This document shows positions 3 to 22,893 of a stretch of DNA of 64,000 nucleotides, in pieces. Position 1 is the first letter of the stretch, and every line of letters starts with the position of its first letter. The notes beneath the pieces are model-generated. The model was not told the origin of the DNA, ran no database searches, and was given only the letters and a program-made list of their open reading frames with translations. The position numbers and the translations under genes were made by a program. This DNA is from Escherichia coli (GTDB lineage Bacteria > Pseudomonadota > Gammaproteobacteria > Enterobacterales > Enterobacteriaceae), in NCBI RefSeq assembly GCF_045037415.1, contig NZ_CP173438.1. The stretch is one strand, 5' to 3'.

Positions 3-722
3 GTATTACAAATTACGCGTAGTGAACTGGCAGAGTCCAGCAAACTGGCGGCGCTTGGACAGATGGCAACCGAAATTGCCCATGAACAAAATCAACCGTT
101 AGCCGCCATTCACGCACTTACTGATAACGCGCGTACTATGCTAAAAAAAGAGATGTATCCACAGGTTGAACAGAATCTGAAACACATTATTTCCGTGATT
201 GAGCGGATGACGCAGCTCATTTCCGAACTTAAAGCATTTGCCTCGCGCCATCGCGTACCTAAAGGTTCTGCCGATGTCATCAAAGTGATGTATAGCGCCG
301 TGGCGTTACTTAATCACAGCATGGAGAAAAATAACATTGAGCGACGAATAAAAGCCCCATCCATGCCGTTATTTGTCAATTGCGATGAACTCGGTCTTGA
401 ACAGATATTCAGTAATTTAATTAGCAACGCCTTAGATTCTATGGAAGGTAGCTCTTACAAACGACTGGATATCGCCATTCGCCAGGCAAATAACAAAGTT
501 ATTATTACCATTAAAGACAGCGGTGGCGGTTTTGCACCTGAAGTTGTCGATCGCATATTTGAACCATTTTTTACCACTAAACGTAGAGGAATGGGGTTGG
601 GACTGGCAATAGTCAGCGAAATTGTCCGAAATTCGAACGGCGCACTCCACGCCAGTAATCATCCTGAAGGCGGCGCAGTAATGACATTAACCTGGCCTGA
701 ATGGGGAGAAAAACATGAATAA
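3..722 (+). CDS. kguS: sensor histidine kinase, C-terminal part (5' end lies upstream of the window)
   Basis: Open frame from window edge; H-box (ATEIAHE) and HATPase_c-like C-terminus (DSGGGF, GMGLGL); 8-bp overlap with downstream response regulator; context matches the alpha-ketoglutarate utilisation island described in UPEC. Confidence 0.6.
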   Translation, partial: VLQITRSELAESSKLAALGQMATEIAHEQNQPLAAIHALTDNARTMLKKEMYPQVEQNLKHIISVIERMTQLISELKAFASRHRVPKGSADVIKVMYSAVALLNHSMEKNNIERRIKAPSMPLFVNCDELGLEQIFSNLISNALDSMEGSSYKRLDIAIRQANNKVIITIKDSGGGFAPEVVDRIFEPFFTTKRRGMGLGLAIVSEIVRNSNGALHASNHPEGGAVMTLTWPEWGEKHE

Positions 723-2073
723 TAAATTCAGTGAAATTACTATAGTTTATATTGAGGATAGTGACGATGTACGTTTTGCCTGTGAACAAACGCTCACGCT
801 GGCTGGTTATCGCGTTATTTCCTGTTGCGATGCAGAACACAGTATTCCCCTTATTCAAAGTCAGGCCAACATTATTATACTGACCGATGTCAGGTTACCT
901 GGAATATCAGGACTAGAGCTCCTCAGTTACATCAACGAAATGGATAGCAAAATTCCGGTTATTTTAATTACCGGACACGGTGACGTGGAAATGGCGGTGG
1001 ATGCCATGCGTAATGGTGCATTCGATTTCATTGAGAAACCAAGTAGCTCAGATAAATTATTGAGTATTATTGCCAGAGCGGTAGAAAAACGGCGATTGGT
1101 TTTAGAAAATCAGCAATTACTGGCGAATCTGCAACAGGAAAATGGCCCGGTGCTGATTGGTCGTAGTCCGCAGATGCAGCAACTGCGTAAAATGATCCTT
1201 AATGTCGCAGATACCGGTGCCGATGTCCTTATTTATGGTGAAACAGGTTGTGGTAAAGAAGTCGTCGCCAGAATGCTGCATCACTGGAGTACCCGCCGTC
1301 AGGGGCAGTTTGTTGCCTTAAACTGTGCAGGCTTACCAGAAACGTTGTTTGAAAGCGAAATATTTGGTCATGAGGCGGGCGCATTTACCGGTGCGGTTAA
1401 AAAGCGTATTGGAAAAATTGAACATGCAAATGGTGGTACGTTATTTCTCGATGAAATAGAGGGAATGCCATCAGGAATGCAGGTAAAACTGCTACGTGTA
1501 TTGCAGGAAAGAACCATTGAACGATTAGGTGCCAATCAATTAATTCCGGTGAATTGCCGTGTTATTGCAGCGACCAAGGAAGATTTACTGCGTCGCAGCG
1601 AAGAACATCTGTTTCGTCTCGATCTCTATTATCGTCTGAATGTGGTTAGCCTGAATATTCCACCTCTACGCCAGCGACGAGAAGATATCCCTGAACTGTT
1701 TTACTGGTTCGCCAGTCAGGCGGCACAAAAATATAATCGTCCTCTGCCTGATATTTCTCCCATGTTACTGGCCTGGTTGCAGTCACAAAGTTGGCCTGGC
1801 AATGTACGTGAACTTAAACACAATGCAGAGCGTTTTGTTCTCGGTTTACTGACCCACCACCAGCCAGTGCCAATGACTCAGCAAGAAGAGAGTGGTCTTA
1901 CCGCCTGCATTGATGCTTTCGAGAAAAAGTTAATCGAAGATATGCTGCGACAAACGGAAGGCCAGGTCAGTTTGACAGCGCGGCTATTACAGCTGCCGCG
2001 CAAGACTTTATATGACAAACTCAACAAACATCAGATTCAACCGCAAGTTTATCGACCAGAATCATCCAGCTAA
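715..2073 (+). CDS. kguR: sigma54-dependent response regulator (NtrC family: receiver + AAA+ sigma54 activator + C-terminal HTH)
   Basis: 452 aa; receiver domain, Walker A GETGCGKE, GAFTGA motif, C-terminal Fis-type HTH; not identical to ZraR. Confidence 0.65.
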   Translation: MNNKFSEITIVYIEDSDDVRFACEQTLTLAGYRVISCCDAEHSIPLIQSQANIIILTDVRLPGISGLELLSYINEMDSKIPVILITGHGDVEMAVDAMRNGAFDFIEKPSSSDKLLSIIARAVEKRRLVLENQQLLANLQQENGPVLIGRSPQMQQLRKMILNVADTGADVLIYGETGCGKEVVARMLHHWSTRRQGQFVALNCAGLPETLFESEIFGHEAGAFTGAVKKRIGKIEHANGGTLFLDEIEGMPSGMQVKLLRVLQERTIERLGANQLIPVNCRVIAATKEDLLRRSEEHLFRLDLYYRLNVVSLNIPPLRQRREDIPELFYWFASQAAQKYNRPLPDISPMLLAWLQSQSWPGNVRELKHNAERFVLGLLTHHQPVPMTQQEESGLTACIDAFEKKLIEDMLRQTEGQVSLTARLLQLPRKTLYDKLNKHQIQPQVYRPESSS

Positions 2074-4686: not shown

Positions 4687-4702
4687 TGCAGGAGCTATGC
4701 CA
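4687..4702 (-). promoter_or_regulatory. candidate sigma54 (-24/-12) promoter for permease/Ldh_2 operon
   Basis: Minus-strand TGGCATAGCTCCTGCA (GG and GC spaced 10) about 40 bp upstream of the start codon. Confidence 0.45.
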
Positions 4703-9550: not shown

Positions 9551-12295
9551 TCATGGCTGAATATCTGCAAACGCAGCAGCAAGAAATTCGTCGATTTGTT
9601 GTTTATGTACACGCCCATACCCTGTCGCTGGTGCTGCCGCTGCCGGGCGGCCTGCATACTGCCAGTAAGGAGTGTTAATTTTCAGTGCCGCCAGCTCATG
9701 ACGAATCTGCCGCCACGCGCCCTGGTTTTCTGGCTCTTCCTGCAACCAAATCCATTCGCAGCAGTTCGGCCAACTCGCCAGAACATCATTCAGTTCTGCG
9801 ACCGGGAACGGGTAGAGTTGCTCCAGGCGAACAATCGCTACCTCGTCTTCATGCTCACGCTGCTTACGGGCTTCCAGTACGTCGTAATAGACCTGGCCGC
9901 TACACAAAATAACGCGCTTAACTTTCTGGGACTGATGCAATTGCGGATCGGTGATTACCGGTTTATAAGCGTCATCAGTGAATTCACAAAGCTCGCTCAT
10001 CGCGCCTTTAAACCGAAGTAAACGCTTACTCATCATTATCACTAACGGTTTGCGCATTGGGCGTAATGCCTGACCGCGCAACAAATGGAACATTTGTGCT
10101 GACTCACTGGGCATCACCACCTGCATGTTGTTTTCTGCGCACAGTTGCAGCCAGCGCTCAGGACGTGCGGAAGAGTGCTCCGGCCCTTGTCCGTCATAGC
10201 CATGCGGCAGAAGAATGGTTAAACCGCTATAGCGATCCCACTTGGTTTCGCCAGACGAGATAAATTGGTCAATAGCAACCTGAGCGCCGTTGGCAAAGTC
10301 ACCAAACTGTGCTTCCCAAATAACCAGTTGCTGAGGCGCAGACGTTGAATAGCCATATTCAAAGGCTAAGAGCGCTTCTTCATTAAGCACCGAATCATAA
10401 ACATCGAAAGATGCCTGACCAGCGCGGATATGCTGTAACGGCAGATAACGACGGGCTTCCGTTTGATGATGTACCACTGCATGGCGATGACTGAACGTGC
10501 CACGCCCTGAGTCTTCACCAGAAAGACGCACACCAACACCCGCATCCACAAGCGATGCATAGGCCAGCATTTCAGCCATTCCCCAGTCTACTGGCTGAGT
10601 ACCTGCGGCCATATCCTGGCGTAACGCCAGTTGCCGTTTAATGGTAGGATGTGCGACCACATCGGGTGGCAGTGTAGAAATGATTTCACCATACGCTGCC
10701 AGCTTTTGCCGAGGCAATGCCGTAGATACCGGGGCGCTCCAGTGAGGGTTGGTCAACCCATACCAGTTAGCGCTAAAAGAGTGAATTGCAGGTTTGAGAG
10801 GCTGCGGTTCACGTTTCTGGCAGCTATCCAGCCAGTCGCGATAGCGTGCCGTCATCTCATCTTGTTGCGCCTGAGTTAACAGGCCGCGGCGGGCAAGAGA
10901 TTCACCATAACGGGCGAGCGTACCAGGGTGAGCATCCACTGCCTGATACATTTGTGGCTGGGTAAGACGTGGCTCATCGCTTTCGTTGTGTCCGTGCTTA
11001 CGGAAGCAGCAAATATCGATGATGATGTCACGCCGGAAGGTGTCTCGCCATTCGCACGCCAGTTCCATTACCTGGCAAACAGCGTCAACGTCATCGCCAT
11101 TAACGTGGATAATTGGGGCCGCTACCATTTTGGCAATATCGGTGCAGTACCGTGAAGAACGCATATCCTGCAAGCGGGAAGTGGTGAAGCCAATCTGATT
11201 GTTAATCACCAGATGTAGCGTACCGCCAGTGCCGTAGCCCTGAGTCTGCGATAAGTTAAACGTGGTTTGGTTGACGCCGAGGCCGCCCAACGCGGAATCC
11301 CCATGAATAAGTACGCCCACCACTTTTGCCTGACCATCCTCACCACGGCGTTCCTGCCTGGCTCGCACCTGGCCCAGCACCACCGGATTCACGATCTCCA
11401 GATGTGAGGGGTTATACGCCAGCGCCACATGCAGCGAACCGGCAGGTGTTTCCAGATTGCTGGAATACCCCATGTGGTATTTCACATCGCCTGAACCACT
11501 GCCGATCGTCTGCTTGCCTTCAAACTCAGCAAAAAGCTGTGCCGGGTCTTTATTCAACAGATTAACCAGAACATTAAGTCTTCCCCGGTGCGCCATGCCA
11601 ATGACCATTTCCTCCACACCTTGCGCACGCAGGCGTTTTGTCAGCGTATCGAGCGCCGGGATTGCACTTTCGCCCCCTTCCAGAGAAAACCGTTTCTGCC
11701 CAACATAACGGGTATGCAGATAACGCTCTAACGTCTCTGCCGCCATCAGTTTTTCAAAACGAGCAATACAGGTTTGGGCATCAGCTTGTGGCGCATTGCT
11801 GCTCTCAATCCGTGATAACAACCAGTTGATTTCTTCACGATTTTCCAGATGAGCAAGTTCATAAGCCTGGCTACTGGCCCAGGCTTGCTCCAGCAGGTTA
11901 AGCAGTTGCTTAAGTGGCATTTGCGTGGTGTGTGCGCCAAAGGTGACGCTAAACTCCTGCAACAAGTCTTCTTCGCTTAATCCCCAAAAACCAGGCTGGA
12001 GGGAGGGAACGTCAGCCGGGGGATTCAAACCAAGTGGATCAAGCTTTGCGCGCAGATGCCCCTGCGTGCGCCAGGCATTGATCAGTTGTATTACCGCAGC
12101 CTGTTTTTTTAAGGTCGCACCGCTGATATTGTTATCACCGGATACGCTTTGGACAGTCAGTTCAGGTGAAAGAAAAAAACGCCGCCAGTCTTCCGGGAGT
12201 TGTTCCGGCGTACGCAACCAGGTCTGGTAGTACTCTTCAAGCCAGGTCGCGTTATCTCCACTAAGCAGCGTGCCGGGCGAGGTCATGTTCTCCAT
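9551..12295 (-). CDS. 2-oxoglutarate dehydrogenase E1 paralog (SucA-like)
   Basis: ORF 9551..12418 trimmed to ATG at 12295 (MENMTSPG...) with AGGAGA RBS; >900 aa, SucA-like. Confidence 0.8.
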   Translation of the reverse strand: MENMTSPGTLLSGDNATWLEEYYQTWLRTPEQLPEDWRRFFLSPELTVQSVSGDNNISGATLKKQAAVIQLINAWRTQGHLRAKLDPLGLNPPADVPSLQPGFWGLSEEDLLQEFSVTFGAHTTQMPLKQLLNLLEQAWASSQAYELAHLENREEINWLLSRIESSNAPQADAQTCIARFEKLMAAETLERYLHTRYVGQKRFSLEGGESAIPALDTLTKRLRAQGVEEMVIGMAHRGRLNVLVNLLNKDPAQLFAEFEGKQTIGSGSGDVKYHMGYSSNLETPAGSLHVALAYNPSHLEIVNPVVLGQVRARQERRGEDGQAKVVGVLIHGDSALGGLGVNQTTFNLSQTQGYGTGGTLHLVINNQIGFTTSRLQDMRSSRYCTDIAKMVAAPIIHVNGDDVDAVCQVMELACEWRDTFRRDIIIDICCFRKHGHNESDEPRLTQPQMYQAVDAHPGTLARYGESLARRGLLTQAQQDEMTARYRDWLDSCQKREPQPLKPAIHSFSANWYGLTNPHWSAPVSTALPRQKLAAYGEIISTLPPDVVAHPTIKRQLALRQDMAAGTQPVDWGMAEMLAYASLVDAGVGVRLSGEDSGRGTFSHRHAVVHHQTEARRYLPLQHIRAGQASFDVYDSVLNEEALLAFEYGYSTSAPQQLVIWEAQFGDFANGAQVAIDQFISSGETKWDRYSGLTILLPHGYDGQGPEHSSARPERWLQLCAENNMQVVMPSESAQMFHLLRGQALRPMRKPLVIMMSKRLLRFKGAMSELCEFTDDAYKPVITDPQLHQSQKVKRVILCSGQVYYDVLEARKQREHEDEVAIVRLEQLYPFPVAELNDVLASWPNCCEWIWLQEEPENQGAWRQIRHELAALKINTPYWQYAGRPAAAAPATGYGRVHKQQIDEFLAAAFADIQP

Positions 12296-12330
12296 GTTTT
12301 TCTCCTGATGGTCATAGACAGCTGCATTAC

Positions 12331-12346
12331 TGCACAATCCGTACCA
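12331..12346 (-). promoter_or_regulatory. candidate sigma54 (-24/-12) promoter of the sucA-like operon
   Basis: Minus-strand TGGTACGGATTGTGCA (TGG...GC with canonical spacing) ~36 bp upstream of the start codon. Confidence 0.45.
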
Positions 12347-12440
12347 ACAGTTAAAAACACTAATTTTCAAAAACTTATAGAAAAGAGATGATGTAAAAGT
12401 GGGCGAAAAAAGGGACAAAATAGTAGGGAGTGGCTGGAGT

Positions 12441-12464
12441 CAGGAACAGGCGGAGAGATCCGCC
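12441..12464. promoter_or_regulatory. perfect 10-bp inverted repeat (candidate activator binding site and/or tyrB 3' hairpin)
   Basis: AACAGGCGGA-GAGA-TCCGCCTGTT, ~100 bp upstream of the candidate sigma54 promoter and 13 bp past the tyrB stop; no U tract. Confidence 0.35.
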
Positions 12465-12476
12465 TGTTGATTAAAA

Positions 12477-13670
12477 TCACATCACCGCAGCAAACGCCTT
12501 TGCCACGCGATGCACATTTTGCGTGTTAAGCCCGGCGACACACATGCGACCGCTGGCGATGAGATAGACACCAAATTCTTCACGTAGTTGGTCAACCTGA
12601 GCGGCACTTAAACCGGTATAACTGAACATGCCGCGCTGATTAAGCAGATAATCGAAATTGCGTTCTGGCATCTCTGTGCTCAATACCTTCACCAGTTCCT
12701 GACGCATTGCCAGAATGCGAGTTCGCATCTCTTCTACTTCCACCAGCCAGCTGGCTTTCAATGCCTCGTCATTCAGCACCGCAGCCACCACCTGCGCACC
12801 AAAATTCGGCGGGCTGGAGTAGTTGCGGCGAACAGTTGCTTTCAATTGCCCCAGTACGCGGCCTGCGGCTTCGGCATCTTCACACAGAACAGAAAGTCCG
12901 CCGACGCGCTCGCCGTAAAGGGAGAAAATTTTCGAGAACGAATTGCTCACCAGAGCGGGTAATCCAGCGCTGGCAATGGCGCGAATGGCGTAGGCATCCT
13001 CTTCCATACCGGCACCAAATCCTTGATAGGCAATATCAAGAAATGGGATAAGCTCACGGGCTTTGAGAATTTCAATCACCGCATCCCACTGCTCATTAGT
13101 GAGATCGGCACCCGTTGGGTTGTGGCAACATGGATGCAGCAACACAATACTGCGGGCAGGTAATGTTTTCAGCGTCGCCAACAGGTCATTAAAGCGCACG
13201 CCGTTAGTCGCTTCGTCATACCAGGGGTAAGTACTTACTTCGAATCCAGCCCCGGCGAATATTGCTACGTGGTTTTCCCAGGTAGGATCGCTGACCCAGA
13301 CGCTTGATTCCGGGAAGTAGCGTTTCAGGAAATCTGCGCCCACTTTCAATGCCCCTGAGCCGCCAAGGGTTTGAATGGTTGCTACGCGCTGTTGTTGCAG
13401 TACCGGATGGTCCGCACCAAACAGCAGCGGCGCAATGGCATGGCGATAGCTGTTAAGCCCTTCCATCGGTAAATAAAGCGAAGCACCATGAGGCTGCGCA
13501 TTCAGGCGCGCTTCCGCATCCGCCACGGCTTTCAGTTGTGGAATAATTCCGTCTTCGTTGTAGTACAGACCGATACTTAAATTCACTTTGTCGCTGCGAG
13601 GGTCTTCTTTAAAACGCTCCATAAGCGTAAGAATCGGGTCGCCAGCGTAGGCGTCAACTTTTTGAAACAC
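12477..13670 (-). CDS. tyrB: aromatic amino acid aminotransferase
   Basis: TyrB-like 397 aa from GTG start at 13670 ([13 protein letters not shown]...); ORF-finder N-terminal extension removed. Confidence 0.9.
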
Positions 13671-13751: not shown

Positions 13752-14780
13752 TCAGTCGGGAAGTTGGCGAAGAATTTGCTCCACTCGCTCTTGCAGTGGC
13801 CCCGAAACCGAAAGATAAGGAATGTTCCTGCGCGACAATTCCTGTTCATACCACACCTGTTGCCGTGCGCGAAATACCTCTCCTTGCCGGGTGCCATCCT
13901 GCACGAAGGGAAATTCTGCGCCGCAAAGCACTACCAGAGAGTATTCCCGCTCCGCCAGTTGGTGAAGTTCTTGCGGAGCATGACCATATTGATCAAGGGC
14001 ATAGAATAAGGTCGTGAGTGGCGACGTGTCACATATAAGATAGTGATTAGCTTCTGCTTGTTGTTCCCGGCGTACCTGTTCGCAGGCGATATGCAACAAA
14101 TCATCCGCAGTTAAGATACCGTTTTTTTCTTCCCAATAGTCGCGGCCAAATTCAGCGACATACACCGTATCAAGCACGCCCGCCAGCGCTTTTGAAAGCG
14201 TGCTTTTACCGGTAGATTCGCCACCAAGCAGACAGATACGGCGAACGAAACTGTAATAAACATCATTCGCCAACATGTAGCGATAGCGGTGAACATCGGA
14301 ACGAATAAGCGTTCCCGAAGGCGCTTCATCGCCAACTGGGCGCGCCATTCGAACGTGTTCAACGGGTTGGGCAAAACGCCGCGCCAGCACGTTAGCAAAG
14401 CCATCGCCATAGTCTTCTGCAGTAAATACAGCGTGTGGGCGGCAACGTAATATCTGCAAGCATAGCGTCGCCACATAATGACGGTGGATGTCGGCATCAG
14501 CATTGTTATGCGGGATAGCAGGTAAGTTATAACGCGCAACAAGCTCTGGCGTCAGTACCAAAAACGTCGCTTGCGGGAAGCGCACTTGCAGCCACGTCAG
14601 GCGCTTTTCAGGTTCACAGTCAGGCATTTCCGGCACGGAATAACTGATGATGAACAGTTCTTCACATTGCGCCAGTGCGGTATTGATCAACTTTTCATGA
14701 CCACAATGCAAAGGCGCGAATTTACCAACCACCAGACCCGTTGCAAAAGGCTTCATGATGTTTGCAACTCTTTGCGCCAT
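13752..14780 (-). CDS. NadR-like bifunctional NMN adenylyltransferase / ribosylnicotinamide kinase lacking the N-terminal HTH
   Basis: HxGH nucleotidyltransferase motif (HCGH), Walker A GGESTGKST; 342 aa; alternative start MKPF at 14756 abuts the pnuC-like stop. Confidence 0.65.
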   Translation of the reverse strand: MAQRVANIMKPFATGLVVGKFAPLHCGHEKLINTALAQCEELFIISYSVPEMPDCEPEKRLTWLQVRFPQATFLVLTPELVARYNLPAIPHNNADADIHRHYVATLCLQILRCRPHAVFTAEDYGDGFANVLARRFAQPVEHVRMARPVGDEAPSGTLIRSDVHRYRYMLANDVYYSFVRRICLLGGESTGKSTLSKALAGVLDTVYVAEFGRDYWEEKNGILTADDLLHIACEQVRREQQAEANHYLICDTSPLTTLFYALDQYGHAPQELHQLAEREYSLVVLCGAEFPFVQDGTRQGEVFRARQQVWYEQELSRRNIPYLSVSGPLQERVEQILRQLPD

Positions 14781-15310
14781 TGATACAAACCATACCAGGC
14801 GTTAATCCAGAACAGGAAATATAAGCCAGCGGTCAGGTTTAAACCGCGCGTCATATACAGTGGCACCGCCAGGGTATTCACCGCTAACCAGACGTACCAG
14901 TTTTCGATACGTCTTCCCATCAACATGAATTGTGCCAGAACGCTGAAGGTCAAAATCAACGAATCCAGCCAGGGTGCCCAAGCATTGGTAAAGGTGTGGA
15001 GTAAAAAGCCGTAACCGCCTGCCACGACGACAGCACAGAGCAACAAAAGGAAAAAGTGACTGGCTTGCGTTCGGCGCACCGGCAAGATGTCGCCACCCTG
15101 ACCTTTCAGCCAGTGGATCCAGCCAGTGATGCTGGTCACGATGAAGAATAACTGGAGCGTAACGTCGGCATAGAGTTGCACGGACCAAAAAACCCAGCCG
15201 TACAATATGCTGCCAATTATGCCGATCCACCATGTATGCACATTGTTTCTGGCAGCCAGCCAGACGGAAACCGCGTATGCCAGACACGCGGCGATTTCTG
15301 AATAAGACAT
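14753..15310 (-). CDS. PnuC-family nicotinamide riboside transporter-like membrane protein (short form)
   Basis: 185 aa, Trp-rich TM segments typical of PnuC; 22 bp after alr stop. Confidence 0.6.
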   Translation of the reverse strand: MSYSEIAACLAYAVSVWLAARNNVHTWWIGIIGSILYGWVFWSVQLYADVTLQLFFIVTSITGWIHWLKGQGGDILPVRRTQASHFFLLLLCAVVVAGGYGFLLHTFTNAWAPWLDSLILTFSVLAQFMLMGRRIENWYVWLAVNTLAVPLYMTRGLNLTAGLYFLFWINAWYGLYQWRKELQTS

Positions 15311-17952: not shown

Positions 17953-18987
17953 TTAACGCCCCCGCTTTCCGGTGGAAGCGCGAATTTGCAGGGTCGGGCG
18001 ATAGATGTAATGGCTGAGCGGTGCGTCTGGTTGCGCAATACGCCGTAAAATTTGCTGCGCCGCCTGTTTCCCCAGAGCCAATGGTTCTACCGCAATTGTG
18101 GTTAACGGCGGGTTACTGTAAGCACAAGCCGCCACGCCATCATTACCAATCAACGAAATATCTTCCCCGGCAAATAATCCTCTTTCGCCTAGTGCCGACT
18201 CCGCGCCAAAAGCCATTAAATCGTTATAACAAATCACCGCTGTGGGTGGCGAAGGCATATCCAACAGCTGTTGCATCAACTGGTAGCCGTTGGCCTGAGT
18301 CGGTTCAGCACGCAGCGAAAAAGCATCAGTACTCCACGGCTGTAAACCATGGTGATTCATCGCCTCAAGGTATCCCTGATAACGCATATGGTGCGTAAGA
18401 CCACCAATAAACACGATATCTCTGTGCCCTTGTTGAATGAGATATTCCGTCGCTTCCCGTACACCTGCGTGGCTGTCCACGCCAACGTAATCGACGGGCA
18501 ATTGTTGCCAATCCAGAGGGCGCATCGTGATTAATAAGGGTGTGGAACTGTTGGCATAACGCTGTAAATCGGCTTCTGAGGTACTGTTCACTGGACAGAG
18601 GACAATGCCCGCGACGTGGTGTTCCAGCAAGGTATCAAGCACCTGTTTTTGCCGGTCACTACGCTGGGAGGTATTGGACATCACGGTGATAAAACCGTGC
18701 TCCGCCAGCGTCATCTCAAGACCCATAGTAAATTCAGCGAAGAAAGGATTTATCAAATCGTCAATGACTACGCCGATAGTTAGCGATTTTTGCGAACGCA
18801 GATTGGCAGCAAAACGGTTATAGACATAGCCTAATTGTTCAATGGCTTGCTGGACTTTTTGTTGCGTCTCTTTTTTGATAAGTGAACTGTCGTTGAGAAC
18901 CAGCGATACAGTCGATTTCGAAACGCCAGCCGCACGCGCAACATCGGTTAATGTTACCCGCTTTCTTCCTGTATCCGACTTCGCCAT
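17953..18987 (-). CDS. LacI-family transcriptional regulator
   Basis: N-terminal HTH (VTLTDVARAAGVSKSTVSLVLN) + periplasmic-binding-protein-like domain; start ATG 18987; divergent from the 19243 operon. Confidence 0.8.
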   Translation of the reverse strand: MAKSDTGRKRVTLTDVARAAGVSKSTVSLVLNDSSLIKKETQQKVQQAIEQLGYVYNRFAANLRSQKSLTIGVVIDDLINPFFAEFTMGLEMTLAEHGFITVMSNTSQRSDRQKQVLDTLLEHHVAGIVLCPVNSTSEADLQRYANSSTPLLITMRPLDWQQLPVDYVGVDSHAGVREATEYLIQQGHRDIVFIGGLTHHMRYQGYLEAMNHHGLQPWSTDAFSLRAEPTQANGYQLMQQLLDMPSPPTAVICYNDLMAFGAESALGERGLFAGEDISLIGNDGVAACAYSNPPLTTIAVEPLALGKQAAQQILRRIAQPDAPLSHYIYRPTLQIRASTGKRGR

Positions 18988-19047
18988 GCCTGCTCCAAAC
19001 CCCCATAAGATCAAGGCAATTACTTTATCATAATCTCCTTTTACTCA

Positions 19048-19074
19048 TGCGATCCGTTAACGCAAGGGATCGCA
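19048..19074. promoter_or_regulatory. candidate operator palindrome in regulator/operon intergenic region
   Basis: TGCGATCC-N11-GGATCGCA inverted repeat in the AT-rich divergent promoter region. Confidence 0.3.
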
Positions 19075-19242
19075 GGAGATCGTCGTTTCGATCACAGATT
19101 CGCACTTCCCTTGTTGTGTTTTTTACACCCTAATCGTACAAATTACGCATAAATTAGATCGTTCCAATTAATTTATGAAAATTATCATATTGTTTTAAAT
19201 GTATATTTTTAATTATTTTTATATCGAAACAAGGAAATTATT

Positions 19243-20814
19243 ATGTGCTCTGTACGCACGATCACTGCACCGGAAGCTGCAGATTTGATTGTTGATGGCG
19301 CAGTTGTCACCGTCTCCTCCTCCAGTGGAATGGGGTGTCCGGATGCGGTGCTGGCAGCAATAGGTGAACGCTTTCAACGTGCCGGACATCCGCAAAACAT
19401 CACCTCCATCCACCCTATCGCCGCTGGTGATATGTATGGCGTAAAAGGCATCGATCATCTGGCGCAACCGGGCTTACTGGCAAAAGTGATCGCTGGCTCC
19501 TACCCCTCCGGTCCATCATCAATGACGCCTCCGTTAATCTGGCAAATGATCAATGACAACGCGATCCCCGCCTGGAATCTGCCTTCCGGGATCTTATTTG
19601 ATATGCACCGGGAAGCGGCGGCTCATCGTCCTGGCGTGCTGACACAAACAGGCATGGATACCTATGTGGATCCCCTGTTGCAGGGCGGTGCAATGAATGA
19701 AAAAGCGGCGCAACAATCTCTGGTTGAACGTGTTCGATTTGCTAACGACGACTGGCTGTTTTTCCCCAGTATCGTGCCGCAGGTGGCGATCATTCGCGCT
19801 ACCACTGCCGATGAACGCGGCAACCTGACTTATGAACATGAAGGGGCTTATCTGGGGCCACTGGAACAGGCTACTGCCGTTCGCAATAATGGTGGCATCA
19901 TAATTGCGCAAGTAAAACGACAGGTTGCCGCCGGAAGTCTGAAACCAAAAGAGGTGCGTATTCCGGGTGTACTGGTGGATTACATCGTGATTGCGCCGGA
20001 ACAAACACAAACGACACAAACGCAATATGAACCTGCCATTTCCGGCGAAATCAGTCGTCCGCTGTCAGCCTTTCGTTATATGGAACATGGCCCGGCGCGA
20101 GTTATTGCCCAGCGAGTCGCGCAAGAACTACAAAGTGGAGATGCGGTAAATATTGGCTTTGGTATTTCTGCCAACGTACCACGCATTTTACTGGAACAAG
20201 GTCGCCACGGTGACGTCACCTGGCTGCTGGAACAGGGCGCGATTGGCGGAGTTCCACTGCTGGAATTTCAGTTCGGTTGTGCCTCTAATGCAGAAGCATT
20301 TTTGCCCTCTCCCCAGCAGTTCACCTATTTCCAGGGTGGTGGTTTTGATCTCACTCTGATGTCGTTTTTACAAATCGGCGCAGATGGCTCAGTGAACGTC
20401 TCACATCTCCCCGCTCGTCCACATGTCACTGCCGGATGCGGTGGATTTATTGATATCACCTCACATGCGAAACGCATTATTTTCTCTGGCTTTTTCAATG
20501 CCGGTGCCCAACTGCAACTGGAAGAGGGTCAGCTGCGTATCATTAAAGAAGGCAAAGCCAAAAAACTGGTACAGGACGTCGCCCACGTGACGTTCTCCGG
20601 CAAACGCGCAATAAGACTCGGGCAACAAGTACAGTACATTACTGAACGCTGCGTTCTGGAATTAACCCCAGACGGGCTACTGGTCACAGAAATTGCCCCA
20701 GGTATTGATCCTGAACGCGACATTCTCGCCCAAAGCGATGCCCCACTCCGTCTGGCAGACGATCTCAAACTAATGAATCCCCTCTATTTTCAACAAGGAA
20801 GTCACCATGAATAA
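19243..20814 (+). CDS. family I CoA-transferase (acyl-CoA:acetate / propionate CoA-transferase-like, fused alpha-beta)
   Basis: 523 aa; AAGGAA RBS; resembles YdiF/Pct-type transferases. Confidence 0.65.
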   Translation: MCSVRTITAPEAADLIVDGAVVTVSSSSGMGCPDAVLAAIGERFQRAGHPQNITSIHPIAAGDMYGVKGIDHLAQPGLLAKVIAGSYPSGPSSMTPPLIWQMINDNAIPAWNLPSGILFDMHREAAAHRPGVLTQTGMDTYVDPLLQGGAMNEKAAQQSLVERVRFANDDWLFFPSIVPQVAIIRATTADERGNLTYEHEGAYLGPLEQATAVRNNGGIIIAQVKRQVAAGSLKPKEVRIPGVLVDYIVIAPEQTQTTQTQYEPAISGEISRPLSAFRYMEHGPARVIAQRVAQELQSGDAVNIGFGISANVPRILLEQGRHGDVTWLLEQGAIGGVPLLEFQFGCASNAEAFLPSPQQFTYFQGGGFDLTLMSFLQIGADGSVNVSHLPARPHVTAGCGGFIDITSHAKRIIFSGFFNAGAQLQLEEGQLRIIKEGKAKKLVQDVAHVTFSGKRAIRLGQQVQYITERCVLELTPDGLLVTEIAPGIDPERDILAQSDAPLRLADDLKLMNPLYFQQGSHHE

Positions 20815-21586
20815 CGGCACCATTGACCTCCAGCGCAACGGTTTCATTGCCACTTTGGTGATTAATCGCCCGGCGAAACTCAACGCATTAACCCCAGAGA
20901 TGCTCGAACAACTGCTGGCGCATTGCCACACGTTGGAAACTGATTCGGAGATCCGCGTAGTACTGCTGACCAGTGCCAGTGAAAAAGCGTTTTGTGTCGG
21001 CGCGGATATTCATCGCTGGACCTCTCTTTCTGCACTCGATATGTGGCGCAACTGGATCCGCCGCGGTCATCAGGCATTTGATGCTCTGGCACAACTGCCA
21101 CAGCCCGTAATCGCCCTGTTGCACGGCCTGGCTTATGGCGGTGGTCTGGAACTGGCTGCTACCGCCGATATCCGTATTTGTAGCGCCGAAGCACAAATGG
21201 CACTACCAGAAACCGGGCTGGCGACAGTGCCTGGCTGGTCAGGAACGCAGCGGCTGACGGCACTGCTTGGGCGCTCACTGGTGAAAGAACTGGTATTTAC
21301 CGGTGAACCACTGGATGCACAGCGGGCACTGTCCTGCGGGCTGGTGAATCGCGTTGTCGCCAGGGAGGCGTTACACGACGCCGGACTGCAACTGGCACAA
21401 CGTATCGCCCAGCGTGCTCCCGTTGCAGTGCAGATCGCCAAGCAGGTTATTGATGCCGGAGAAGGTATTGCTGTGGCCTCGACGCTTGAAGCACTGGCTG
21501 GCGCTTTTTCCGCCACGACTGAAGATGCTCATGAAGGCAGTCAGGCATTTACTGAGAAGCGTCAACCGCACTTTCAGGCACGCTGA
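20807..21586 (+). CDS. enoyl-CoA hydratase/isomerase (crotonase) family protein
   Basis: 259 aa; crotonase oxyanion-hole regions (FCVGADI, GGGLELA); 8-bp overlap with upstream gene. Confidence 0.8.
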   Translation: MNNGTIDLQRNGFIATLVINRPAKLNALTPEMLEQLLAHCHTLETDSEIRVVLLTSASEKAFCVGADIHRWTSLSALDMWRNWIRRGHQAFDALAQLPQPVIALLHGLAYGGGLELAATADIRICSAEAQMALPETGLATVPGWSGTQRLTALLGRSLVKELVFTGEPLDAQRALSCGLVNRVVAREALHDAGLQLAQRIAQRAPVAVQIAKQVIDAGEGIAVASTLEALAGAFSATTEDAHEGSQAFTEKRQPHFQAR

Positions 21587-21612
21587 TCGCCTCTTACAAG
21601 GAAAGAAAGATA

Positions 21613-22893
21613 ATGAATATGACAACCTCTGTTCCCCAAACGCCTTCTTTATTTCGGCGAATAATGACAAAACTCGCGGCCTTTGCACCTGGCATCTTTC
21701 TTATTGGCTACAGCATCGGAACAGGCAGCATCACCACTATGGCTAAAGCAGGTGCTAACTATGGTGTCTCGCTCATGTGGGCCGTGGCGCTTTCTTGCAT
21801 TGTTACCTGGTTTTTAATCCGTATTTATGGTCGTTATGCTTCCGTCACTGGTGAACGCGCGTTGACTGCATTTCGTCGCCATATCCATCCCGGCGTTGCG
21901 ATGTTGTTTCTGATCGGGTTAACCGTTGCCGTGAGCGGTTCCATTATGGGGGTAATGGGTATTCTGGCGGATGTAATGGCAACATGGTCCACGACCTGGT
22001 TTAGTGGCGGTATCTCAGCTCTCGCCTGGGCTATCGCGATGGTCATTATGATTAACGTGATGCTCTGGACCAACAGCAACGCCGGGTTCGACAAAATCCT
22101 CTCCGCGCTGGTTGGCATTATGGGGCTGGCGTTTGTGATTAATTTTTTCATTATGATGCCGCCGGTCGCAGATCTGCTGGCCGGATTTATTCCGTCTGTT
22201 CCCGATCCTGTCGCTGGCGATAACAGTACGCCATTTCTGATAATTTCTGGCATGGTGGGTACCACCGTAGCACCAGCAATGTTTCTTATGCGCACGACCC
22301 TGGTAAAAAGTAATGGTTGGGGTGTGGACAATTTGCCTCATCAAAATCGTGATGCCATTGTCAGTGCAGGAATGATGTTCATCATCAGTGCGGCGGTGAT
22401 GGCTGCGGCTGCGGGTACGTTGTACCAAACTGGCACAGGTTTAAATAATGCCTCGCAAATGGTCATTATTCTCGAACCTATTGCTGGCTCAGCTGCCGTG
22501 GGGCTCTTTGTTATTGGTATTGTTGCAGCCGGGCTTTCCAGCCAGTTCCCAAATTTGCTGTTAACGCCCTGGCTGCTGGCTGACTGGCGTGATACCAGCA
22601 ACGAAGTTAGCCCAGGTTACCGTATCCTGATGACGGTTATGTCTCTGCTTTGTCTGGTTGTGCCGCTGTTCCACGCACGCCCGGTATTGGTGATGATTGC
22701 CAGCCAGGCCTTTAACGCCATTATTCTGCCGCTGACTGTTTTATGTATGTTCTGGCTGGCGAACAAGCCTTCGTTAATGGGCAAATATCGTTGCTCACGC
22801 TGGGAAAACGTCATGTTTATTGCCATAAGCGTATTTACGCTAATCATGGGCTATATGGCAATGAGCGGCTTAATCGAAAGTCTGATGAAATAG
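21613..22893 (+). CDS. NRAMP-fold transporter homolog lacking canonical metal-binding motifs
   Basis: 426 aa polytopic; TM1 region aligns to NRAMP GPGxL...DPGN...QAGA but reads APGIFL...GTGS...AKAGA. Confidence 0.55.
   Translation: MNMTTSVPQTPSLFRRIMTKLAAFAPGIFLIGYSIGTGSITTMAKAGANYGVSLMWAVALSCIVTWFLIRIYGRYASVTGERALTAFRRHIHPGVAMLFLIGLTVAVSGSIMGVMGILADVMATWSTTWFSGGISALAWAIAMVIMINVMLWTNSNAGFDKILSALVGIMGLAFVINFFIMMPPVADLLAGFIPSVPDPVAGDNSTPFLIISGMVGTTVAPAMFLMRTTLVKSNGWGVDNLPHQNRDAIVSAGMMFIISAAVMAAAAGTLYQTGTGLNNASQMVIILEPIAGSAAVGLFVIGIVAAGLSSQFPNLLLTPWLLADWRDTSNEVSPGYRILMTVMSLLCLVVPLFHARPVLVMIASQAFNAIILPLTVLCMFWLANKPSLMGKYRCSRWENVMFIAISVFTLIMGYMAMSGLIESLMK

What the first reader, a model, noticed from the sequence alone, without database searches (positions are those of the whole stretch)
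12331..12464. Candidate sigma54 promoter and upstream perfect palindrome controlling the sucA-like operon
On the minus strand, about 36 bp upstream of the sucA-like start, there is TGGTACG-N4-GTGCA with the conserved GG and GC at -24/-12 spacing. About 100 bp further upstream there is a perfect 10-bp inverted repeat AACAGGCGGA-N4-TCCGCCTGTT. That geometry fits an enhancer-binding-protein site for the adjacent NtrC-family regulator. The palindrome lies only 13 bp past the tyrB stop and has no U tract, so it may double as an RNA 3' hairpin.
Basis: seen in the sequence. Interest (0 to 1): 0.45.

Follow-up and report, generated by a model that had tools for sequence, protein, structure and literature searches.

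The report
Sigma-54 promoter of UPEC alpha-ketoglutarate operon
The motif is very likely the real sigma-54 promoter of the known KguR-controlled alpha-ketoglutarate operon (c5032-c5037) of uropathogenic E. coli, but the palindrome upstream is the end-of-gene hairpin of tyrB, not the regulator's binding site.

Summary
The window is E. coli carrying the KguS/KguR alpha-ketoglutarate island (CFT073 c5032-c5041) inserted after tyrB. Both sequence features exist as described, with minor coordinate errors.

The GG-N10-GC element (12346-12331, minus strand) is not unusual by consensus match alone. However, it is conserved at the same place upstream of the E1 gene in 7 independent lineages, and TGG and TGC are invariant in 13 of 13 island promoter instances. 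It has the same geometry as the sister promoter c5038, which is experimentally sigma-54 dependent. The operon is already published as directly KguR-dependent.

The palindrome (12468-12445) is not the enhancer:
- It does not resemble validated KguR sites.
- It lies outside the conserved promoter module.
- Its spacer changes from 4 to 7 nt in E. albertii.
- It aligns with a hairpin after tyrB in K-12, which lacks the island, with compensatory changes.

It is therefore tyrB's 3' hairpin or terminator.

The likely enhancer is two conserved 20-bp boxes (12448-12429 and 12417-12398), followed by a conserved IHF-like site (12377-12365). The published candidate KguR site inside tyrB is not conserved.

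Verdict: a new member of a known kind, of modest interest.

The parts
12331..12346 (-). Sigma-54 -24/-12 element TGGTACGGATTGTGCA (GG at 12345-12344, GC at 12333-12332), the proposed promoter of c5032-c5037
   Evidence: Sequence. It matches 10/12 of the consensus. It is conserved in 7 lineages. TGG and TGC are invariant in 13/13 instances. It is invariant across the E. coli alleles.
12320..12320 (-). Predicted transcription start (+/-2 nt), 25 nt upstream of the ATG
   Evidence: Inference. The TSS is placed 26 nt downstream of the T of TGG. The same rule gives -30 for c5038, which equals the 5'-RACE TSS in PMC5318444.
12293..12306 (-). Shine-Dalgarno AGGAG (12306-12302) and ATG (12295-12293) of c5032, the 2-oxoglutarate dehydrogenase E1 paralogue
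   Evidence: RefSeq start.
12365..12377 (-). IHF-like site TAAGTTTTTGAAA (the reverse of WATCAANNNNTTR with 1 mismatch), centred at about -52 from the predicted TSS
   Evidence: TAA-N4-TTGA is invariant in 5 clades at the same offset.
12398..12417 (-). Conserved box 2, TGTCCCTTTTTTCGCCCACT, centred at about -88. Candidate proximal KguR enhancer site.
   Evidence: It sits at a fixed offset (-71 from the TGG) in 6 enterobacterial lineages. It is the top KguR-model hit in the E. coli upstream region: 10.3 against a shuffle 95th percentile of 9.5.
12429..12448 (-). Conserved box 1, TGTTCCTGACTCCAGCCACT, centred at about -119 and 31 nt upstream of box 2. Candidate distal enhancer site. It overlaps the last 4 nt of the palindrome.
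   Evidence: It is the top KguR-model hit in Klebsiella sp. 2680 (10.3) but scores only 0.4-0.7 in E. coli.
12445..12468 (-). Perfect 10-bp palindrome with a 4-nt spacer. This is the tyrB 3' hairpin, a terminator-like element without a U tract.
   Evidence: Centroid fold -16.9 kcal/mol. It covaries with the K-12, Logan90 and E. albertii hairpins: 95% of cells paired and 4/10 pairs with changes on both sides. It is a single copy in the window.
12477..12479 (-). tyrB stop codon TGA
12520..12544 (-). Published candidate KguR site TGTGTG-N13-CACGCA (CGCGCA in CFT073), inside the tyrB 3' coding end. Probably not the enhancer.
   Evidence: Papers read, and regex hit. It is absent from E. albertii, Klebsiella sp. 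2680, Logan90, Pectobacterium and Brenneria. The right half-site is polymorphic within E. coli. It scores 2.8 with the KguR-site model.
9551..12295 (-). c5032, the E1 gene and first gene of the operon. It is followed by E2, E3, sucC-like and sucD-like genes down to 4858.
715..2073 (+). kguR (c5040), a sigma-54-dependent response regulator with a GAFTGA loop and a C-terminal HTH
4687..4702 (-). Sister sigma-54 element TGGCATAGCTCCTGCA of c5038 (rpoN dependence is published)
   Evidence: and PMC5318444.
4763..4812 (-). Tandem KguR sites of the c5038 promoter: the proximal site TGTGCGGAAAACCGCGCACA (4782-4763, validated by deletion) and the distal site TGTGTGG... (4812-4793), 30 nt apart

Best explanation
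The element at 12346-12331 is the sigma-54 (RpoN) promoter of the c5032-c5037 operon. This operon encodes an anaerobic 2-oxoglutarate dehydrogenase and succinyl-CoA synthetase in the KguS/KguR alpha-ketoglutarate island of extraintestinal pathogenic E. coli.

Proposed mechanism:
1. RNA polymerase with sigma-54 sits on the GG/GC element as a closed complex.
2. Phosphorylated KguR, an NtrC/DctD-type enhancer-binding protein, binds about 90-120 bp upstream. It most likely binds two conserved 20-bp boxes (12448-12429 and 12417-12398) that are 31 bp apart.
3. The DNA is bent at a conserved IHF-like site (12377-12365).
4. KguR's ATPase opens the promoter, and transcription starts near 12320.

The perfect palindrome (12468-12445) is not part of this machinery. 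It is the 3' stem-loop of the tyrB transcript. It probably terminates or stabilises tyrB mRNA and keeps tyrB read-through out of a tightly activator-dependent operon.

Shown here or published: the sequence features, their conservation, KguR dependence of the operon, and KguR binding to the -272..+32 fragment.

Inferred: rpoN dependence of this particular promoter, the TSS, which sub-site KguR contacts, IHF binding, and termination at the hairpin.

Sub-confidences: sigma-54 promoter about 0.9; palindrome is tyrB's hairpin rather than the enhancer about 0.85; the boxes are the KguR enhancer about 0.55.
For: Identity of the locus: and PMC3694859.

Published evidence:
- c5032-lacZ falls to background in the kguR mutant, and KguR shifts the c5032 fragment -272..+32.
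- Island genes show a mean log2 fold change of -7.99 in the kguR mutant.
- The sister promoter c5038 has a RACE-mapped TSS at -30 and loses induction in the rpoN mutant, and RpoN shifts it in EMSA.

- KguR carries GAFTGA, and its HTH is nearly invariant in four lineages.
- A GG-N10-GC element lies 51-65 nt upstream of the E1 start in E. coli, E. albertii, Klebsiella sp. 2680, two unnamed Logan assemblies (L090 and L092), Pectobacterium, Brenneria and a MAG.
- TGG and TGC are invariant in 13/13 instances while the spacer varies.
- The promoter module from -105 to -3 has 22/103 columns invariant in 5 clades, against 0.8 expected and a maximum of 5 in 5000 shifted nulls.
- Upstream of -105, identity is at random level, 20-29%.
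- No sigma-70 promoter is found on the operon strand.
- A KguR-site model trained only on c5038-type and kguS sites puts its best hit on box 2 or box 1 in most lineages.

Hairpin:
- It folds stably.
- It is 95% paired across lineages, with 4 pairs changed on both sides.
- The Logan90 homologue has a U tract.
- K-12, which lacks the island, keeps the hairpin.
Against: - rpoN dependence and the TSS have never been measured for c5032.
- The consensus match is not above window-wide chance on its own.
- The boxes are only weak matches to the KguR model (10.3 against a null 95th percentile of 9.5). Box 1 in E. coli scores about 0.5, and the Pectobacterium and Brenneria boxes score below the null. 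The boxes could bind another protein.
- The E. coli hairpin has no U tract, so intrinsic termination is not assured.
- The published EMSA fragment contains the palindrome, the tyrB-internal site and the boxes together, so it does not discriminate among them.
Confidence: 0.75

Rival explanations
1. One reading: the perfect palindrome AACAGGCGGA-N4-TCCGCCTGTT is the KguR enhancer site, possibly doubling as an RNA hairpin.
For: Its centre is about -137 from the predicted TSS, a plausible enhancer distance. It lies inside the fragment that KguR shifts in EMSA. Its inner GCGG...CCGC loosely echoes TGTGCGG-N4-CCGCGCA. It abuts box 1, overlapping it by 4 nt.
Against: - It scores -0.7 and -1.9 with the KguR model.
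- The spacer is 4 nt in E. coli and 7 nt in E. albertii.
- Klebsiella sp. 2680, Logan90, L092, Pectobacterium and Brenneria have different sequences there or none at all, although the KguR HTH is nearly invariant in the four lineages aligned, E. coli, Klebsiella sp. 2680, Logan90 and Brenneria.
- Its position is fixed relative to the tyrB stop, not relative to the promoter.
- A homologous, covarying hairpin exists in K-12, which has no KguR.
Confidence: 0.07
2. The published model: KguR activates c5032 from the TGTGTG-N13-C(G/A)CGCA site inside the tyrB 3' coding end (12544-12520), about 212 bp upstream of the start.
For: It was proposed in PMC3694859 and listed in PMC8716947. It matches the authors' loose pattern. 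It lies in a mosaic patch of tyrB specific to island carriers, which also holds an extra TGTGCA half-site. It is inside the EMSA fragment.
Against: - It was never tested by mutation.
- The N13 spacing differs from the validated N6 and N8 sites.
- TGTGTG is simply the Met-Cys-Val codons and is also present in K-12.
- The right half is polymorphic in E. coli and absent in E. albertii, Klebsiella sp. 2680, Logan90, Pectobacterium and Brenneria.
- It scores 2.8 with the KguR model.
- It lies outside the conserved module.
Confidence: 0.2
3. The GG-N10-GC match is fortuitous, and c5032 is transcribed from a sigma-70-type promoter (as BProm was used to predict in 2013) or by read-through from tyrB.
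For: Motif matches of this quality occur at chance frequency in the window. rpoN dependence has not been tested for c5032.
Against: - No sigma-70-like promoter is found on that strand.
- The element is invariant at TGG and TGC across 7 lineages, in a region otherwise diverged to 42-65% identity.
- The operon is strictly dependent on a GAFTGA-containing enhancer-binding protein.
- Expression at background level in the kguR mutant argues against read-through.
Confidence: 0.05

Closest known systems
Pc5038, the sigma-54 promoter of the alpha-KG transporter operon in the same island (Cai et al. 2017, PMC5318444)
   Same: Both have TGG-N10-TGC at 51-56 nt from the ATG, tandem upstream sites 30-31 bp apart centred around -90 to -125, an AT-rich IHF-like stretch in between, KguR dependence and KG induction.
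   Different: Pc5038 has strong palindromic sites of the TGTGCGG-N4-CCGCGCA type. The c5032 boxes are degenerate: one recognisable half-site (on the opposite strand) plus a conserved TGT. rpoN dependence, the TSS and site deletion have been shown only for c5038.
NtrC-glnAp2 and DctD-dctA type enhancer-dependent promoters (from established knowledge, not tested here)
   Same: A response-regulator enhancer-binding protein binds two upstream sites about three helical turns apart, roughly 100-140 bp upstream of a -24/-12 promoter. An IHF-assisted loop is used in many members.
   Different: The regulator and signal differ (KguS senses alpha-ketoglutarate under anaerobiosis), and so does the recognition sequence. 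KguR is only 36-37% identical to NtrC.
MifR/RpoN control of the PA5530 alpha-KG transporter in Pseudomonas aeruginosa (cited in PMC5318444)
   Same: An enhancer-binding protein together with sigma-54 controls alpha-KG utilisation genes.
   Different: It is in a different organism and targets a transporter gene. No dedicated 2-oxoglutarate dehydrogenase paralogue operon is described there.
The hairpin after tyrB in E. coli K-12 (GCAGGCTGG-N5-CCAGCCTGC)
   Same: It occupies the same position (9 nt against 8 nt after the stop), has the same GC-rich stem and no U tract, and aligns with compensatory pair changes.
   Different: The stem sequence differs at 3-4 pairs. In the island version the stem abuts the c5032 enhancer region.

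Membership tests
Sigma-54 (RpoN)-dependent promoter | GG and GC dinucleotides exactly 10 nt apart within TGGCACG-N4-TTGCW | tested here: met
   TGGTACGGATTGTGCA matches 10/12, with GG and GC in register. TGG and TGC are invariant in 13/13 orthologous and paralogous promoter instances.
Sigma-54 (RpoN)-dependent promoter | Obligate dependence on an enhancer-binding protein with a GAFTGA loop | tested here: met
   KguR contains GAFTGA plus the receiver, AAA+ and HTH_8 architecture. The published c5032-lacZ fusion falls to background in the kguR mutant.
Sigma-54 (RpoN)-dependent promoter | Transcription abolished without rpoN, with the TSS about 12 nt downstream of the GC | not testable with these tools
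   This has been shown only for the sister promoter c5038. No paper in the library reports it for c5032.
Sigma-54 (RpoN)-dependent promoter | No functional -35/-10 sigma-70 promoter serving the same gene | tested here: met
   The consensus scan finds none on the operon strand in 12150-12750.
Sigma-54 (RpoN)-dependent promoter | Upstream activator sites at about -80 to -150, often with an IHF site in between | tested here: inconclusive
   Two conserved boxes and a conserved TAA-N4-TTGA lie at fixed offsets. Which proteins bind them is untested.
KguR binding site (validated: TGTGCGG-N4-CCGCGCA at c5038; TGTGTGG-N4-ATCGCACA at kguS) | The palindrome resembles the validated motif | tested here: not met
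   The model scores it -0.7 and -1.9, against 14.5-22.5 for true sites.
KguR binding site (validated: TGTGCGG-N4-CCGCGCA at c5038; TGTGTGG-N4-ATCGCACA at kguS) | The palindrome is conserved in sequence, spacing and offset to the promoter wherever the KguR HTH is conserved | tested here: not met
   The spacer is 4 nt in one lineage and 7 nt in another. Other lineages carry different sequences or none. The offset to the promoter varies.
KguR binding site (validated: TGTGCGG-N4-CCGCGCA at c5038; TGTGTGG-N4-ATCGCACA at kguS) | Conserved boxes 1 and 2 resemble the validated motif | tested here: inconclusive
   The boxes are the best hit in the upstream region in most lineages, but the scores are marginal: 10.3 against a null 95th percentile of 9.5, and lower in Pectobacterium and Brenneria.
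Rho-independent terminator (for the palindrome) | A GC-rich stem-loop immediately downstream of the stop codon | tested here: met
   A 10-bp stem with a 4-nt loop starts 8 nt after the TGA. The centroid fold is -16.9 kcal/mol.
Rho-independent terminator (for the palindrome) | A U tract directly after the stem | tested here: not met
   The tail is UUCCUGACUCC, and the scan finds no terminator. The Logan90 homologue does have CUUUUUCU. The element is therefore filed as terminator-like, not as a canonical member.
Rho-independent terminator (for the palindrome) | The structure is maintained by compensatory changes among homologues | tested here: met
   95% of cells are paired, 4/10 pairs change on both sides, and the covariation score is 0.467 against 0.193 for shuffles (1 of 500 reach it). 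Only 4 sequences were available.

The most novel reading that the evidence does not exclude
The true KguR enhancer of c5032 is the pair of conserved degenerate boxes, so the published tyrB-internal site is a mis-assignment. Box 1 shares 4 bp with the tyrB terminator stem, so KguR occupancy and tyrB 3'-end formation could influence each other. This would couple an alpha-KG-consuming aminotransferase to alpha-KG catabolism, and it could explain the reported 2.2-fold drop of tyrB mRNA in the kguR mutant.
Probability: 0.1. Interest if true: 0.45.

Novelty: new member of a known kind. Interest (0 to 1): 0.3.

Why it matters
The KguS/KguR island contributes to UPEC fitness in the urinary tract. Its E1 operon is known to be KguR-activated, but I found no paper in the searchable library that gives its promoter, its start site or a validated enhancer for it.

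The comparative evidence here does three things:
- It pins the core promoter to a sigma-54 element.
- It argues that the only published candidate KguR site for this operon is probably wrong.
- It offers precise, testable alternatives: two boxes and an IHF site.

This refines a known regulon. It is not a new mechanism.

Tried and rejected
- Consensus statistics in the window gave no enrichment, so the motif alone proves nothing.
- The first protein search, with the E. coli E1 sequence, returned only near-identical E. coli entries and was useless for footprinting. Re-querying with the Pectobacterium orthologue gave the divergent lineages.
- The authors' loose KguR pattern and relaxed TGTG...CACA patterns found nothing upstream of E1 outside E. 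coli.
- The repeat finder with arms of at least 12 nt missed the 10-bp palindrome and gave nothing useful near the promoter.
- Rfam found no RNA family in 11800-13000, even at E-values up to 1.
- The palindrome is not a repeated element in the window.
- The Klebsiella sp. 2680 hairpin could not be aligned in register with the others, so it was left out of the pair count. It is analogous in position, but homology is not shown.
- FNR, CRP and ArcA consensus sequences were compared by eye with the conserved boxes and the AT-rich block. None fitted better than KguR and IHF. This was not a formal test.
- A literature search on the tyrB terminator failed on term syntax and was not repeated.

Full report
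**What the locus is.**
The 1-kb stretch around the finding matches E. coli chromosomes. All genomes have the tyrB part, but only 1045 of 5426 complete genomes have the adjoining sequence. RefSeq annotation of an identical genome gives the following gene order on the window's minus strand: tyrB, a 2-oxoglutarate dehydrogenase E1 paralogue, odhB, lpdA, sucC, sucD, a DASS transporter and an Ldh-family oxidoreductase. A convergent sigma-54-dependent regulator and a sensor kinase follow.

This is the KguS/KguR genomic island (c5032-c5041) of uropathogenic E. coli CFT073, inserted between tyrB and aphA (PMC3694859). In the window, kguR is at 715-2073 on the plus strand and kguS is cut by the window start.

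**What was already known.**
- Cai et al. 2013 showed that c5032-c5037 and c5038-c5039 are two operons induced by alpha-ketoglutarate under anaerobiosis.
- They showed that c5032-lacZ and c5038-lacZ fall to background in a kguR mutant.
- They showed that MBP-KguR shifts a c5032 fragment spanning -272 to +32 from the start codon. They used BProm to predict promoters and proposed TGTGTG-N13-CGCGCA as the c5032 site.
- Cai et al. 2017 mapped the c5038 TSS by 5' RACE at -30, identified a -24/-12 motif, and showed loss of induction in an rpoN mutant and RpoN binding. This was for c5038 only.
- The 2021 RNA-seq paper reports a mean log2 change of -7.99 for the island genes in the kguR mutant. It validates KguR sites by deletion at c5038 and kguS, and lists the tyrB-internal motif only as a possible tyrB regulatory site.
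- No paper in the library mentions a sigma-54 motif, rpoN dependence or a TSS for c5032.

**Checking the observation.**
The element TGGTACGGATTGTGCA is at 12346-12331 on the minus strand. The palindrome AACAGGCGGA-tctc-TCCGCCTGTT is at 12468-12445. The tyrB stop is at 12479-12477 and the c5032 ATG is at 12295. The gap to the stop is 8 nt, not 13. The regulator is 10 kb away rather than adjacent.

Window-wide, sites with at least 10/12 consensus matches number 4 against 6.9 expected, and the proven c5038 element scores only 9/12. The match alone therefore carries no weight. Only its placement (chance about 0.01 for this intergenic strand) and its conservation do.

**Comparative evidence for the promoter.**
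True orthologues of the E1 paralogue are rare. They are E. albertii (92%), Pectobacterium (63%) and a MAG (59%) among species representatives, plus Brenneria, Klebsiella sp. 2680 and unnamed Logan assemblies found through the protein collection. Brenneria, Klebsiella sp. 2680 and Logan90 carry the whole island, including kguR and kguS.

Every lineage has one GG-N10-GC element 51-65 nt upstream of the E1 start:
- E. coli: TGGTACGGATTGTGCA
- E. albertii: TGGTATGGATTGTGCA
- Klebsiella sp. 2680: TGGTATGGATGCTGCA
- Logan90: TGGTACGAATACTGCA
- L092: TGGCGCGAAATATGCA
- Pectobacterium: TGGCACATTCCCTGCT
- Brenneria: TGGCATATTCCCTGCT
- MAG: TGGCACAAATGCTGCT

Together with four c5038-type promoters and one further Escherichia allele (strain 14EC007), TGG and TGC are invariant in 13/13 instances, while spacer positions 7-12 vary freely. 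The element is invariant across the E. coli alleles. No sigma-70-like promoter is found on the operon strand.

Placing the TSS 26 nt downstream of the T of TGG reproduces the RACE-mapped c5038 start (-30). For c5032 it predicts a start at window 12320.

**The promoter module.**
Anchoring all lineages on the TGG without gaps gives 42-65% identity over -105..+15 between distant lineages. Identity is only 20-29% (random level) over -230..-106. Across five clades, 22 of 103 columns between -105 and -3 are invariant, against 0.8 expected and a maximum of 5 in 5000 shifted nulls.

The conserved columns form three blocks:
- Box 1: TGT-N8-CCAGCCAC-like, window 12448-12429.
- Box 2: 31 nt downstream of box 1, window 12417-12398.
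- TAA-N4-TTGA at 12377-12365, which is the reverse of the IHF core with one mismatch.

Their centres are about -119, -88 and -52 from the predicted start. The c5038 promoter has its two KguR sites 30 nt apart at about -127 and -97.

**Which site does KguR use?**
KguR orthologues are 72-90% identical, and the C-terminal HTH is almost invariant. The recognition sequence should therefore be conserved. At c5038-type promoters, TGTGCGG is indeed conserved in all four lineages.

I trained a position weight matrix on nine such sites (self scores 14.5-22.5) and scanned the 300 nt upstream of each E1 element:

| Lineage | Best hit | Score |
|---|---|---|
| E. coli | box 2 | 10.3 (shuffle 95th percentile 9.5) |
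| E. albertii | box 2 | 10.3 |
| L092 | box 2 | 8.4 |
| Logan90 | box 2 | 10.0 |
| Klebsiella sp. 2680 | box 1; box 2 second | 10.3; 10.0 |
| Brenneria | box 2 | 4.9 |
| Pectobacterium | box 2, second-best hit | 5.7 |
| MAG | strong sites in the same zone | 15.8 and 10.4 |

In E. coli the palindrome scores -0.7 and -1.9, and the published tyrB-internal site scores 2.8.

The published site is also absent from all non-E. coli lineages, and its right half is polymorphic within E. coli (CACGCA here, CGCGCA in CFT073-type alleles). Its left half is merely the Met-Cys-Val codons, which are also present in K-12.

The boxes are therefore the best candidates for the enhancer. Their scores are marginal, however, and the published EMSA fragment contains all three candidates. 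I put the assignment to the boxes at roughly 55%.

**What the palindrome is.**
K-12 lacks the island and KguR. It has a different 9-bp GC-rich hairpin 9 nt after the tyrB stop, also without a U tract. Logan90 has AGGCTGGC-N5-GCCAGCCT followed by CUUUUUCU, which is a canonical terminator. Klebsiella sp. 2680 has GGCCTGGCG-N4-CGCCAGGCU. E. albertii keeps the E. coli island arms but has a 7-nt spacer in place of the 4-nt one.

Aligning the E. coli island, E. albertii, K-12 and Logan90 versions gives these results (only four sequences):
- 95% of cells are paired.
- 4 of 10 pairs have changes on both sides.
- The covariation score is 0.467 against 0.193 for shuffles (1 of 500 reach it).
- Slid controls give 32-50% pairing.

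The hairpins stay 8-13 nt from the tyrB stop, while their distance to the sigma-54 element varies. In lineages where the island follows another gene (Pectobacterium and Brenneria, after yshB), that gene has its own strong terminator instead. The palindrome is a single copy in the window, and no Rfam family matches.

All of this fits a tyrB 3' hairpin. It does not fit a protein site that depends on a rigid spacing. The published background-level expression in the kguR mutant implies that tyrB read-through is blocked somewhere in these 180 nt. I infer that the hairpin contributes to this, possibly with Rho.

**Verdict.**
It belongs to an already characterised regulon, and its sister promoter is a published sigma-54 target. 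It is therefore a new member of a known kind.

The enhancer assignment to the palindrome is not supported. The RNA-hairpin side remark is the correct primary reading.

The useful increments are three: the precise promoter architecture, a predicted TSS, and evidence that the published KguR site for this operon is probably not the functional one.

Noticed in passing
window 12480-12545 (tyrB 3' end), compared with L002 1740-1810 and L003 2750-2815: The last ~60 nt of tyrB in island-carrying E. coli form a mosaic patch. It differs from both K-12 and E. albertii at about 7-8 positions, including two amino-acid changes (A->Q and Q->H). This suggests the island entered by homologous recombination within tyrB, from a donor that already had tyrB next to the island, as in Klebsiella sp. 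2680 and Logan90.
   Followed up: partly
L087 1215-1300 (kguS promoter, just outside the window start): The kguS promoter has the validated KguR site (TGTGTGGTTTATCGCACA on the other strand) only about 35 nt upstream of TGGCACTCTTTTGGTT. That sequence has the -24 GG but no GC at -12. KguR autoregulation of kguSR may therefore not follow the standard sigma-54 enhancer geometry.
   Followed up: no
window 13752-15310 (minus strand): A pnuC gene and an AAA-family (NadR-like) ATPase gene lie between alr and tyrB. In K-12, alr and tyrB are direct neighbours. The same pair is present in the Logan90 lineage but not in Klebsiella sp. 2680. It looks like a second small accessory insertion next to the island.
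   Followed up: no
window 12296-12418 (minus strand): The mechanical ORF list extends the E1 reading frame upstream to a TTG at 12418, running through the promoter, the IHF-like site and box 2. The annotated ATG at 12295 has a good AGGAG Shine-Dalgarno and is conserved in the orthologues, so the extension is an artefact.
   Followed up: yes
L004 2609-2731 and L088 9543-9665: In Pectobacterium and Brenneria the island sits downstream of glnALG and a 40-aa YshB-family small protein gene, not after tyrB. The same island, with the same promoter module, has therefore been inserted at at least two different chromosomal sites. L092 may represent a third context.
   Followed up: partly
L001 17649-19066 and L085 389-594: Some carriers have inactivated island genes. 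lpdA is frameshifted in strain SK1144, and the E1 gene is frameshifted in strain 14EC007. Strain 14EC007 also carries an E. albertii-type allele with a G->A change next to the -12 TGC.
   Followed up: no
window 17953-22893: A LacI-family regulator is divergent from an acyl-CoA:acetate/3-ketoacid CoA-transferase, an enoyl-CoA hydratase and an Nramp-family transporter. This accessory-looking cluster lies next to dnaB and was not examined.
   Followed up: no
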